Below, piece after piece: positions 30,191 to 62,515 of a DNA stretch of 64,000 nt (position 1 is the stretch's first letter; each line of letters starts with the position of its first letter). The notes under the pieces are model-generated. The model searched no databases. It worked only from the letters and a program-made list of their open reading frames with translations, and had not been told where the DNA came from. The stretch covers positions 62,001-126,000 of the forward strand of contig CAXHJY010001673.1 in NCBI GenBank assembly GCA_964016885.1, given 5' to 3'. The position numbers and the translations under genes are program-made. This stretch comes from Eledone cirrhosa. Lineage: Eukaryota.

Positions 30191-31721
30191 GCTGGTTCAA
30201 GAAATAATAAAGTGAAACTCTTGATGTGAGAAAATACGTATATATTAGATATAAATTTATTACATCGTGTTTATAGTTCAACTACTTACATATCCTTAAT
30301 TTATTTGGAGGAAATATGAAAATTAGAACGCGGTAATTTTAATTATGAACATAATATAAATTTTATCTTGACTATTATATGTATGTATTATGCAGCATTT
30401 TAAATTTTACATCAATTTATTTCTGTTTCATATGTATTTTGTATTTTTCTCACACACACACGTTCTTTTGTCTCTCCAATGTAGTTGTCTAATTGTACTG
30501 AGAAACGTGTGACTTGAACACTTTAGCGAAGTTTTAGTTGAAAATATTAACCTCTTCATCTATGTGTTTTGTGTCACTAACTCTGGAATGATGTAATTAT
30601 TTCAACATACGTCGCTAGAAAACCTCCCCCAGCCCTCTATCTGCCTCAACAGTTCACCTTCGCCCTAATAAAACTGCCACAGCTGCTACAGGAGGAGTAA
30701 CGAAATTTAAAATCACAAATTACCGAGAAGATGAGAGTCTTTTCTATATTTTCTCTGTCATTTTGTTAACATTTCCTTCATCCCTTTACCATCGCCAGGA
30801 AATCTGGGATAATCTCCAACAAGGGGAAAACTAATTGTGTTCGACCAGCTAGCGAAGGAGGAACAATCTGTTATTTCTAATTACTGCCGTTGCAAATTAG
30901 TCTTCGACTGGATTGTCCAGTCTTGATTAGAAAATCTGACTGCGAACGGCTTATCAATCAAAGCAATTGAGACCAGTTGTCTAGATTCCAAATATCACGC
31001 CAGACGTAGAAGACTAACGATTGACAGCGGGAAATGCCGCTCGGAGCAGAGTATGTAGTCGGTCTTCAGAAGCTGAAATCAAAATTTAATTAAGTGGAAA
31101 GAATGAAATACTTTGGTAGAGCACATAAAAATAAAGAAAGGGAGAAAAAGAACAGAATAAACGATTTAACAGACAGCTTTCTGGAGACTCTATAACTGAT
31201 GGTAGAAGAAAAAAATGTCTGAATGATCGATTGCAGAAAAAATTAAGTTGAATCTAGGTAGGGAAGAGCAGAATATCTCTCCATTACTATTTTTGTTTTA
31301 ATTTTTGTCATTTTACAAAATATTCCTGCAAAATATATTTGCTCGTCGTTTTATTTCCTACTCTAATTTCATTTTGTAATATTTGCTCTTCTATGAAAAA
31401 GAAAAAAATGACATGAACATCCCATTGTTATAATATTAATATTTATGATTTCGTACATGATATTTTATGATATTATTTCATAAACAAGAAGCTATCTGAT
31501 AGCCGACATATGCTTATCAATTTGATCGCTAAACATTATCTCTTATATATCAAGTGTAGAAAAAGAAACAACAAAAAAAAACATTTCTAGCTTTGAAAAC
31601 AAAACAAATTCAAATTCGTACAAATATTTATCCGATGATCGGGAAAATTGATATGTTCACTCTTTGTCCATATTTTCAGCAAGTACATAATAATAACAAT
31701 AATAATAATAATAATAATAAT

Positions 31722-32425
31722 ATTTACAAGGAGGAGGCTAGCCCACTGTGCAGGATCTGTGGAGAGAGAGAGGAGACTGTGGCTCACATTGTATCCGAGT
31801 GTAAACACCTAGCCCAGACTCACTATAAGGGCTGGAGACATGATGTGATGGGCAGGGTGATCCACTGGCACCTATGCAAAGTAAACAATTTACCACATTC
31901 TGAGAAGTGGTATGAGCATAAGCCAGAGTCGGTGATAGAAAACGATCAGGTGAAGGTGCTGTGGGATTAAAATCCCACAGCACCTTCACCTGATCGTTTT
32001 CTATACAGACAGACAAGAAACTGGAACACAATAGACCTGACCTGGTGGTTTTGGACAAAGAAAAAAGATCGTGCCTGATTGTGGATGTGGCCTGCCCATT
32101 CGACACGAGAGTGCAAGAGAAGGAGAGGGAGAAAATTAACCGATACCAGGACTTAAAGTGGCAGGTAAAAAGGATTTGGAACTGCCATGAAGTCAAAGTG
32201 GTCCCGATTGTCATAGGCGCACTAGGTACTATCTCAAAAAGTTTCCAGGGATGGTTAAAGAAAATTGGCCCCGCCACGCTTTTTGGAACACTTCAAAAGG
32301 CATGCTTGCTGGGAACAGCAAGAACCCTGCGATACGCCATGAATATCTGAGGCTGCAGGTAGTGGCTTGATATTCATTTCAACAAACTTTCCAGTTAACT
32401 AACATCAATGACTGAGACTCAAAGA
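31722..32425 (+). mobile_element. 5'-truncated R4/Dong-like RLE non-LTR retrotransposon in (AAT)n
   Basis: CCHC knuckle CRICGEREETVAHIVSEC, RHD motif, RLE motif NRPDLVVLDK..IVDVACP..EKINRYQDL, stop at 32350; (AAT)n on both flanks; frame broken by an inverted duplication at 31935-32004. Confidence 0.85.
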
Positions 32426-39595: not shown

Positions 39596-39798
39596 GGAAT
39601 CAGTAAGACCCCGTCGGCTGAGCTCAAGCCGTTTCGACGGCTAATTCTAGACTAAAATGGTCCAGAATTAGCCGTCGAAACGGCTTGAGCTCAGCCGACG
39701 GGGTCTTACTGGTTCCTATTACCCACTCTACTACCCTAAGTATTGAGTACTTTGGTGCGTTATGGTCCACCTGGTTCCTTACCACATTTCCTTCGTTA
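39594..39798 (+). mobile_element. Family A fold-back element (best consensus copy)
   Basis: Inverted 39594-39653, then gtccagaattagccgtcgaaacggc..cctattacccactctactaccctaagtattgagtac..ttccttcgtta(TA)n. Confidence 0.9.
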
Positions 39799-51886: not shown

Positions 51887-52240
51887 TAGGAACGAGTAGG
51901 ACCCCGACGGCAGAGCTCAAGCCGTTTCGACGGCTAATTCTCGACTAAAATCAGCCGTCGAAACGGCTTGAGCTCAGCCGACGGGGTCCTACTCGTTCCT
52001 ATTACCCACTCTACTACCCTAAGTATTGAGTACTTTGGTGCGTTATGGTCCCCCTGGTTCCTTACCACATTTCCTTCGTTATATATATATATTATATATT
52101 TATACATATGAAAAGATTCAGGACCCCGACGGCTGAGCTCCGGCCGTTTCGACAGCTAAATCTGAACTAAGCCATCAGTATAACCCACTCTACACCCCAA
52201 GTATTGAGTACTCTGGTGGCCTATGGTCCACCACATCCTA
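51887..52240. mobile_element. Two family A elements separated by (TA)n
   Basis: 51887-52081 fold-back; 52109-52240 rearranged copy. Confidence 0.85.
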
Positions 52241-55338: not shown

Positions 55339-55630
55339 ACACTCTCTCTGTTTCTCACACACGCTTACAAGTAACAAAACCTTGTTTCTTGAGGCGTTTT
55401 CAGATACAAGTAATTGTGTGGATGAATGCCATAAACGCTAGCCTAGTTGGTTAGCTTCCGGCCACACTAGCGAACCTGGCGGCTGTAGAAGCAGTTACGT
55501 TAGTTCACATTGTTTATATCAGAAACAGTTGATTCCCATTGACCCAGTCCATCATTCCATGTTTAATGGTACAACATGGACGAACAGTATATCGCATTCA
55601 CTTATTCCTTAATTCCTTTTTACATTCTGT

Positions 55631-56099
55631 CATTCCCTCACTCATTCTTACATTCATTCAATGCTTTACTCATGTATTCCCTCATTCCCCCCATTCCCTC
55701 AATCACTCATTCCTTCAGTCATTCTTACATTCATTCAATGCTTTACTCATGTATTCCCTCATTCCCCCCATTCCCCCAATCACCCATTCCTTCACTCATT
55801 CTTACATTCATTCAATGCTTTACTCATGTATTCCCTCATTCCCCCCATTACCCCAATCACTCATTCCTTCACTCATTCTTACATTCATTCAATGCTTTAC
55901 TCATGTATTCCCTCATTCCCCCCATTCCCCCAATCACCCATTCCTTCACTCATTCTTACATTCATTCAATGCTTTACTCATGTATTCCCTCATTCCCCCC
56001 ATTACCCCAATCACTCATTCCTTCACTCATTCTTACATTCATTCAATGCTTTACTCATGTATTCCCTCATTCCCCCCATTCCCTCAATCACTCATTCCC
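55631..56099. repeat. 77-bp minisatellite, 6 copies
   Basis: ttacattcattcaatgctttactcatgtattccc starts at 55648, 55725, 55802, 55879, 55956 and 56033. Confidence 0.95.
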
Positions 56100-56369
56100 T
56101 TACTCCTTCCTTAACGCATTCCCTCAATCAGTCATTCTCTTATTTACACATCCCCTCATTTACTTGTCATCCCACCCACTCGTTCCCTTACTCACACATT
56201 CCCTCACCCTTCCTCCCACGCATTCTTTCATTCTCTCATCCACCCATTCGTTCATTCATTTCCGAATACAGTAGAACTGAATGAAGAGCAGCCTCGTTGA
56301 TAACTGTCGAAGAAGATGGCAAAATGGCGAATTGTAAGTACTTCGGGTGGAATGCTTAGCAGTATTTAT

Positions 56370-57766: not shown

Positions 57767-58721
<955 letters not shown>

Positions 58722-58897
58722 TATCACGATAAATTAACGGAGGCATAGGCCCTCGCTATTCCCTGTTTATTCTAGCAGTTCGTCCCTCAGAGGCCACCGG
58801 TTCACTGCCCTTAAACACGCTGTGACTCCTCTCTCCCACGTGTAGCTGGACAGTCAATTGTAAAATTCTCTTAGTGTTGTCTGAAATGTATGGCCTT

Positions 58898-58977
58898 ACA
58901 CACGCTGATGAACCGAGACTAGACCATTTCTTTCAACAAATTTTTGGTGAAACATATCTTTGGATTTGTACGTGTGT
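58898..58977 (+). ncRNA. Type I hammerhead ribozyme, canonical, in element 58725-59151
   Basis: acacacg-CTGATGA-accgaga..ttttggt-GAAA-catatc-tttg-gatttg-TA^-cgtgtgt; perfect 7-bp stem I; predicted cleavage after 58970. Confidence 0.85.
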
Positions 58978-59147
58978 TATATAGTTATAGAGGTATTTAT
59001 TTACGCTTTAATTTATATTTTTAATTATCGTGTCTATAGTCTGCCTCTCATAGGTTATAGATTCCATGCACTGGTGGTTTTTCCCCTGTATTATTGATAA
59101 CGCACTGTATACACGTATCTCTCTCTGGTGTGTTACCTTTTCAACAT

Positions 59148-59208
<61 letters not shown>

Positions 59209-59323: not shown

Positions 59324-59475
<152 letters not shown>

Positions 59476-59597
59476 AAAAGAGTCAGGACCCCGACGGCTG
59501 AGCTCCGGCCGTTTCGGCAGATAGTTCCTTACAACACTACACTTCCTTCGATATATATATATATATATCTGTGTGTGTGTGTGTGTGCGTGTGCGTG

Positions 59598-62293: not shown

Positions 62294-62515
62294 TAACGAA
62301 GGAAATGTGGTAATGAACCAGGTGGACCATAACACACCAAAGTACTCAATACTTAGGGTAGTAGAGTGGGTACGAGTAGGACGAATAGGACTCCGACGGC
62401 TGAGCTCAAGCCGTTTCGACGGCTAATTCTAGACAGAATTAGCCGTCGAATTAGCCGTCCAGAATTAGCCGTCGAAACGGCTTGACCTCAGCCGTCGGGG
62501 TCCTACTCGTTCCTA
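62294..62515. mobile_element. Family A fold-back with triplicated gaattagccgtc at the junction
   Basis: Direct inspection; (TA)n flanks. Confidence 0.85.

What the first reader, a model, noticed from the sequence alone, without database searches (positions are those of the whole stretch)
58725..59151. Canonical monomer-competent hammerhead in a 430-bp non-palindromic (TA)n insert
It has a perfect 7-bp stem I, an intact CUGAUGA/GAAA core, a 7-bp stem II, a stem III long enough to fold as a monomer, and a GUA site. With no inverted arm to sequester it, this is the most likely active ribozyme in the window. It would cut any plus-strand transcript after 58970. Its size and lack of coding capacity resemble non-LTR retrozyme monomers.
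Basis: partly seen in the sequence, partly recalled or inferred. Interest (0 to 1): 0.7.

Follow-up and report, generated by a model that had tools for sequence, protein, structure and literature searches.

The report
Truncated two-armed hammerhead retrozyme copy
This is a shortened copy of an abundant 541-base non-coding jumping repeat that carries a hammerhead (self-cutting RNA) motif predicted, but not shown, to cleave, and its ends match those of this genome's Penelope-type transposons, which likely inserted it.

Summary
The type I hammerhead motif is real (58898-58977, predicted cut 58970/58971). The 427-bp insert is not a monomer and is not free of an inverted arm. It is a truncated copy of a 541-bp head-to-tail repeat family (1,284 exact motif matches, control 0), made of a 42-nt inverted arm joined to a 381-nt forward arm inside (TA)n. 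Family insertions end at two fixed sites, A and B, about 87 nt apart downstream of the cut. All 46 of 46 inverted insertions with both ends at these sites have one A and one B end. A young RT/GIY-YIG Penelope-like element family here obeys the same rule (9 of 9). Best reading: a non-LTR retrozyme mobilised by Penelope-like enzymes priming on both strands of a (TA)n break. With one ribozyme and 122 nt missing, this copy cannot release a monomer or circle. Cleavage, transcription and circularity are untested; folding models disfavour the active fold, stem II is conserved for only about 4 bp, and no partner element was found. The scan already noted this architecture in other families of this genome. 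New member of a known kind.

The parts
58670..58724 (.). Left (TA)n target tract; its last 4 nt (ATAT) also match the element just past terminus B
58725..58766 (-). Inverted short arm, unit positions 262 to 221; the outer end is fixed terminus B
   Evidence: L001; loose ends of other copies at 58766 continue into the unit
58767..58769 (.). Inversion junction, 3 nt not aligned to either arm
58770..59151 (+). Forward arm, unit positions 340-541 then 1-175; runs through the ribozyme cut site and ends at fixed terminus A; 96% identical to the L020 unit
58898..58977 (+). Type I hammerhead motif: stem I 58898-58904/58971-58977, CUGAUGA 58905-58911, stem II 58912-58918/58942-58948, GAAA 58949-58952, stem III 58952-58958/58963-58969
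58970..58971 (+). Predicted self-cleavage site (GUA^C); defines unit position 1
   Evidence: inferred from the hammerhead consensus, not assayed
59097..59105 (+). Segment complementary to 58972-58980 (9 bp, one G-U); predicted competitor of stem I
59152..59186 (.). Right (TA)n target tract abutting terminus A

Best explanation
The insert is a truncated, two-armed copy of a 541-bp tandem repeat family with a type I hammerhead motif, likely a non-LTR retrozyme inserted by a Penelope-like element (PLE) RT/GIY-YIG enzyme. Shown: family, unit, tandem and inverted layout, two fixed termini (A about +175, B about +262 from the cut), (TA)n targets, one A and one B end per inverted insertion, and the same rule in a coding PLE family of this genome. 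Inferred: (1) tandem source copies are transcribed; (2) the hammerhead cuts multimers to 541-nt monomers, which are probably ligated to circles; (3) a PLE protein, probably a dimer, nicks both strands of a (TA)n tract and primes two cDNAs internally, one at A and one at B; (4) both cDNAs run towards the 5' end, usually through the cut site, and are joined head to head at variable points, mostly with short overlaps. In this copy the B cDNA stopped after 42 nt and the A cDNA after about 380 nt. It has one ribozyme and lacks 122 nt of the unit, so it cannot release a monomer; at most it would cut a read-through plus-strand transcript once.
For: Family: 2,444 first-look candidates, best copies 95-96% identical; 1,284 exact pattern matches, control 0. 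Period 541. Set 1: 60 loci merged to 43 places, 44 clusters; all 44 have at least one A or B end, and 26 of 26 with both outer ends at fixed termini are A+B. Set 2: 51 of 64 loci kept; 20 of 20 are A+B, none A+A or B+B. 25 of 31 inversion junctions overlap by 1-9 nt (my count). GIY-YIG: 10,596 candidates. One RT + GIY-YIG family has 87 scored copies at 98-100% identity, a minimal hammerhead motif in its terminal repeat and two termini about 55 nt apart in (TA)n; 9 of 9 of its inverted insertions have one long and one short end. 59 of 79 arms cross the cut site and 46 exceed one unit. Stem I is paired in 97% of cells, with one compensatory A-U to G-C change in a subfamily. Literature: PLE inverted layout, tail at one end, (TA)n bias (PMC8557442; PMC3846280); two internal RT start sites delimit the tail and both strands are cut (PMC11167929); retrozymes as non-autonomous PLE derivatives (bioRxiv 10.64898/2026.07.22.740005).
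Against: No partner PLE: a profile of 95 family segments finds no terminal-repeat homology in 41 PLE loci; its single hit is a separate fragment in a TA tract. No evidence of cleavage: 3 of 79 arm 5' ends lie within 3 nt of the cut, about 1 expected; the genome-wide junction test gave 8 junctions at the cut against 2-3 at a control site, but 2 are explained by stem I complementarity and 2 belong to one insertion. Tandem passes within one arm differ by 0.95% and arms by 1.2%, against 1.9% between insertions, so they are closer but not identical as one circular template would predict before decay. No strand-asymmetric A>G signal (14 of 5,149 vs 22 of 8,656, p=0.86). The predicted fold is unfavourable. 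The 87-nt tail is longer than the 30-40 bp described. In the anole PLE, ribozyme mutants did not affect insertion in vitro and RT start sites did not differ between strands. Target-site duplications cannot be read in (TA)n.
Confidence: 0.85

Rival explanations
1. Same PLE machinery, but the template is an uncleaved linear multimer from tandem source loci. The hammerhead is a weakly active passenger and no circle is involved.
For: 78 read-throughs of the cut site against 3 arm ends near it; tandem units within an insertion are not identical, 132 rare alleles unshared vs 63 shared (pairwise count); unfavourable fold; unprocessed RNA was the dominant substrate for the anole PLE (PMC11167929); 8 of 9 Xenopus elements did not cleave.
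Against: Core and stems I and III are kept across subfamilies about 75-99% identical; units and arms within an insertion are about twice as alike as between insertions; circles are shown for coral, mussel and axolotl retrozymes (PMC7229834).
Confidence: 0.4
2. The inverted arm arises by fold-back self-priming or template switching of one cDNA, not by two primings on the two target strands.
For: Self-priming was proposed for PLE inverted junctions (PMC3846280). Some junctions are small palindromes or use stem I complementarity (L007, L230, L231).
Against: The arms of many insertions, this one included, share no sequence, so one cannot be a copy of the other; both outer ends are fixed and always differ.
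Confidence: 0.12
3. One reading: this copy is an active stand-alone ribozyme that cuts a plus-strand host transcript and so affects expression.
For: Intact core and the longest stem III of the 6 descriptor hits in the window.
Against: 120 non-repetitive open frames of the window give no host Pfam domain, only a sub-threshold zf-RVT hit; short exons would be missed. It is one of over a thousand similar copies, nested among other insertions in (TA)n. Competing pairing downstream.
Confidence: 0.12
4. A DNA-level repeat (MITE, fold-back element or satellite) spread without an RNA intermediate.
For: Non-coding, often palindromic, tandem; no strand-asymmetric mutation signal.
Against: Fixed 3' ends with scattered 5' truncations, unequal termini instead of terminal inverted repeats, a conserved ribozyme, and the same end rule as RT-encoding PLEs.
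Confidence: 0.04

Closest known systems
Metazoan non-LTR retrozymes (Cervera and de la Pena 2020, PMC7229834, passages read; Li, Clavereau and Pollet 2026, bioRxiv 10.64898/2026.07.22.740005, parts 1-3 of 5 read)
   Same: Non-coding head-to-tail repeats, one type I hammerhead per unit, GC 39%, high copy number, PLEs in the same genome.
   Different: The unit is 541 nt (170-400 nt RNAs in the 2020 paper; 51-972 bp in the preprint). Stem III is 6-7 bp instead of 1-2 bp. The 10.1-11.1 pair is A-U or A-C. The word 'inverted' does not occur in the 2020 main text, and the preprint parts read do not describe fixed paired termini. Expression and circles are untested here. The window copy itself is a partial unit.
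EN+ Penelope-like elements, C-terminal GIY-YIG type, with pLTR and tail (PMC8557442, PMC3846280, PMC4209133 passages; PMC11167929 parts 1-2 of 4)
   Same: Partial tandems, an inverted 5'-truncated arm, a tail at one end only, two internal start sites downstream of a hammerhead, (TA)n targets.
   Different: No ORF; the tail is about 87 nt rather than 30-40; the hammerhead has a long stem III rather than the minimal or palindromic form; no sequence homology to the PLE termini examined.
Non-autonomous Chlamys PLEs such as MRC1 (PMC8557442, passage)
   Same: Non-coding, multicopy head-to-tail insertions attributed to PLE proteins.
   Different: Those generally share 3' sequence with an autonomous family, which was not found here; they occur in green algae.

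Membership tests
Type I hammerhead ribozyme | Core CUGANGA, GAAA and NUH with three helices, helix I open | tested here: met
Type I hammerhead ribozyme | Helices kept across homologues | tested here: met
   31 copies: stem I 97% paired with one compensatory change (probably a single event); stem III pairs 28-31 of 31 except one position. The core, stem II CC/GG and two stem I letters were fixed by the collecting pattern, so they are not evidence. Four rows with stem III duplications or rearrangements were left out.
Type I hammerhead ribozyme | G10.1-C11.1 pair and loop I/II tertiary contacts | tested here: not met
   A-U in the window copy; A-U 12, A-C 16, G-C 1, other 2 of 31. Tertiary contacts were not modelled.
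Type I hammerhead ribozyme | Match to an Rfam hammerhead model | tested here: not met
Type I hammerhead ribozyme | Self-cleavage at NUH | not testable with these tools
   The indirect junction test was inconclusive
Non-LTR retrozyme | Head-to-tail repeats with a hammerhead in each unit | tested here: met
   Met for the family (47 of 65 copies intact); the window copy alone is a partial unit
Non-LTR retrozyme | Non-coding, low GC, not framed by LTRs | tested here: met
   GC 0.39; the one non-repetitive frame inside the insert has no Pfam match; PBS/PPT not searched
Non-LTR retrozyme | Expressed as linear and circular monomers | not testable with these tools
   No RNA holder listed
PLE-mobilised non-autonomous element | Tandem/inverted layout, tail at one end, microsatellite targets | tested here: met
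   same in a coding PLE
PLE-mobilised non-autonomous element | Sequence homology to the pLTR of an autonomous PLE | tested here: inconclusive
   None in 41 PLE loci, a small sample of 10,596 candidates
Autonomous PLE | RT + GIY-YIG ORF | tested here: not met
   No such ORF in the insert or window

The most novel reading that the evidence does not exclude
A monomer-competent hammerhead releases a 541-nt RNA circle. One PLE RT dimer binds it and primes two cDNAs at non-equivalent sites (A for one target strand, B for the other) and rolls round the circle, so that every complete insertion is an A+B inverted concatemer. The strict one-of-each rule would be the genomic footprint of an asymmetric two-ended TPRT shared by PLEs and their ribozyme parasites.
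Probability: 0.35. Interest if true: 0.65.

Novelty: new member of a known kind. Interest (0 to 1): 0.36.

Why it matters
The locus itself is an ordinary dead-end insertion. The family matters more: it adds end-structure evidence that retrozymes use PLE enzymes, a link so far argued from co-occurrence and pLTR homology. The 46 of 46 and 9 of 9 A+B counts sharpen the known 'tail at one end' into a rule that predicts strand-specific start sites, which the published in vitro PLE assay can test. In the papers as read I saw no such count (searches; supplements not seen). The scan's notes describe the same architecture for other families in this genome, so this is one more family, not a first case.

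Tried and rejected
Rfam: no hammerhead model. Expression: no RNA holder listed; the 5 runs are contigs of unknown kind, and laying them showed family variants only, no ends and no contig across this copy's junction. Search for the autonomous partner: 40 GIY-YIG loci and one young PLE family showed no homology. A 2.7-3.2 kb-spaced triplet on C1 looked like pLTRs but is a composite non-coding repeat. A variant motif taken from read ends had 0 matches. The first cut-site junction search was swamped by a subfamily with an extra CG; the refined search was inconclusive. RNA-editing scars: none. One search used a mis-registered structure string and is superseded. The bacterial promoter scan is irrelevant to a eukaryote. 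The paper search was swamped by general cephalopod papers and tests nothing. In set 2, 13 of 64 loci were dropped as duplicates; L226 was dropped wrongly through a shared flank. The organism was not established; 'cephalopod' is a guess and the wording of the scan's notes.

Full report
Observation. The window is repeat-rich animal DNA from a 3.0-Gb genome. At 58898-58977 (+) lies a type I hammerhead motif: stem I ACACACG/CGUGUGU, CUGAUGA, stem II of 7 possible pairs (2 G-U), GAAA, stem III of 6 pairs with a U-U mismatch, and GUA^C at 58970/58971. A full descriptor finds 6 motifs in the window and none in 200 block shuffles; the other 5 have short, mostly palindromic stem III regions. Rfam has no matching hammerhead model. 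Nearest-neighbour folding puts the hammerhead fold 2.4 kcal/mol above the ensemble for the bare motif (P about 0.02) and 4.9 above for the whole insert, where 59097-59105 can pair with the 3' strand of stem I. Such models ignore tertiary contacts and Mg2+, and I ran no known-active control, so this is weak evidence.

Family. The insert has 2,444 first-look candidates in the genome, the best 95-96% identical. A hammerhead-anchored pattern has 1,284 exact matches against 0 for the reversed control, in several subfamilies. The unit is 541 bp, 39% GC, in head-to-tail arrays. Numbering from the cut, the window copy is positions 262 to 221 on the minus strand (58725-58766), 3 unassigned nt, then 340-541 and 1-175 on the plus strand. 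So it is an inverted two-armed insertion whose arms do not overlap, it lacks 122 nt of the unit, and it has one ribozyme. In 31 aligned copies stem I is paired in 97% of cells, with an A-U to G-C change on both sides in 6 related copies, probably one event. Stem III is well kept; stem II only for about 4 pairs; the 10.1-11.1 pair is A-U in 12 and A-C in 16. Positions fixed by the collecting pattern are no evidence, and four rearranged rows were left out.

Ends. Sixty loci merged to 43 places and 44 clusters. All 44 have at least one end at A (about +175) or B (about +262), nearly always running into (TA)n. The 26 with both outer ends at these sites are all A+B; 13 have one such end and a plain truncation, and 5 have one such end and an inverted arm ending elsewhere. 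A second set, picked by pattern and genome order and covering older subfamilies, gave 20 of 20 A+B among 51 kept of 64; 14 were one end plus truncation and 17 were irregular. No A+A or B+B case was seen. Inversion junctions fall all along the unit, and 25 of 31 overlap by 1-9 nt (counted; BLAST overhang inflates the shortest). 59 of 79 arms, this one included, run through the cut site, so the template was religated or uncut there.

Enzyme. The genome holds many GIY-YIG elements. One family has RT and GIY-YIG domains, 87 scored copies at 98-100% identity, mostly without stops in the match, a minimal hammerhead motif in its terminal repeat, and two termini about 55 nt apart in (TA)n: 15 long, 14 short and 1 continuing of 30. 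All 9 inverted insertions examined have one long and one short end. It shares no sequence with the 541-bp unit, nor do the other PLE loci held, so the actual partner is unidentified.

Mechanism. Shown: the architecture above. Inferred: transcription of tandem copies, hammerhead processing, probably circularisation, then PLE-driven nicking of both strands of (TA)n and internal priming at A and B, with the two cDNAs joined head to head. This fits the anole PLE, which cuts and extends both strands, starts at two internal sites that delimit the tail and is predicted to dimerise; that study saw no strand difference in start sites and no need for ribozyme cleavage (PMC11167929, parts 1-2 of 4 read). 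Circle versus linear multimer is open: within-insertion divergence is 0.95% (tandem) and 1.2% (arms) against 1.9% between insertions; arm ends are not clearly enriched at the cut; no editing asymmetry was seen.

Comparison. It works like, and meets the testable features of, a metazoan non-LTR retrozyme (PMC7229834, passages; bioRxiv 10.64898/2026.07.22.740005, parts 1-3 of 5; its supplements not seen). Its insertion marks are those of EN+ PLEs (PMC8557442, PMC3846280, PMC4209133, passages). An octopus repeat annotation does not use the words ribozyme, retrozyme or hammerhead in its main text (PMC13282606, passages); the host here was not established. PMC6155905 was seen as passages. The scan's notes report two-armed, PLE-ended retrozymes of 310, 422, 467 and 478 nt in this genome; none resembles this sequence or lies near it. 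My reading was written before that look-up, and the notes are not independent support.

Verdict. A real hammerhead motif in an ordinary truncated copy of a new 541-nt retrozyme family. Interest 0.36.

Noticed in passing
window 58411-58538, 58554-58669, 59474-59550 and about 10 more places (e.g. 2558-2777, 39602-39798, 51890-52081, 62294-62512): An abundant small repeat (28 BLAST pieces) with the same two-ended layout in (TA)n: a short end and a long end about 80 nt further on. The long end resembles the start of terminus B of the 541-bp family (shared CCTCCGTT in some copies).
   Followed up: partly
window 2304, 9975/10084, 14037, 40493 (descriptor hits); 1928, 17475, 25578, 33556/33562, 54422, 61913 (core pattern): Other hammerhead-like motifs of several families, mostly with a short palindromic stem III, some in inverted pairs.
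   Followed up: no
L161-L191 (163 first-look candidates): A composite repeat in which an older copy of this family, often with the 5' strand of stem I deleted, follows a different upstream segment with CACGTG and TTTGGCGCC motifs (E-box- and E2F-like, recalled). No ORF.
   Followed up: partly
L084, L101-L130, L236-L249: A very young PLE family with about 4.2-kb tandem units, intact RT-GIY-YIG frames and inverted insertions; a good candidate for an in vitro assay.
   Followed up: partly
L091:1450-1700 and 1984-2230; L069:3024-3270: Hammerhead-bearing elements that share an 18-nt motif with unit positions 331-348, at a similar distance upstream of the core; possibly a shared promoter element.
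   Followed up: no
L053 (L221, L222): One insertion with both segments starting at the cut site behind a repeated copy of unit positions 1-18, as if RT had reached a cleaved 5' end and restarted.
   Followed up: partly
L020:621-1161: Folded as a circle the unit is more stable than shuffles (-126.8 kcal/mol, z -2.8 on 40 shuffles) and does not form the hammerhead.
   Followed up: partly
window 31560-32350: Broken 3' part of a non-LTR retrotransposon (sub-threshold zf-RVT hit).
   Followed up: no
window 55630-56109: 77-bp tandem repeat, 6.2 copies, 96% matches.
   Followed up: no
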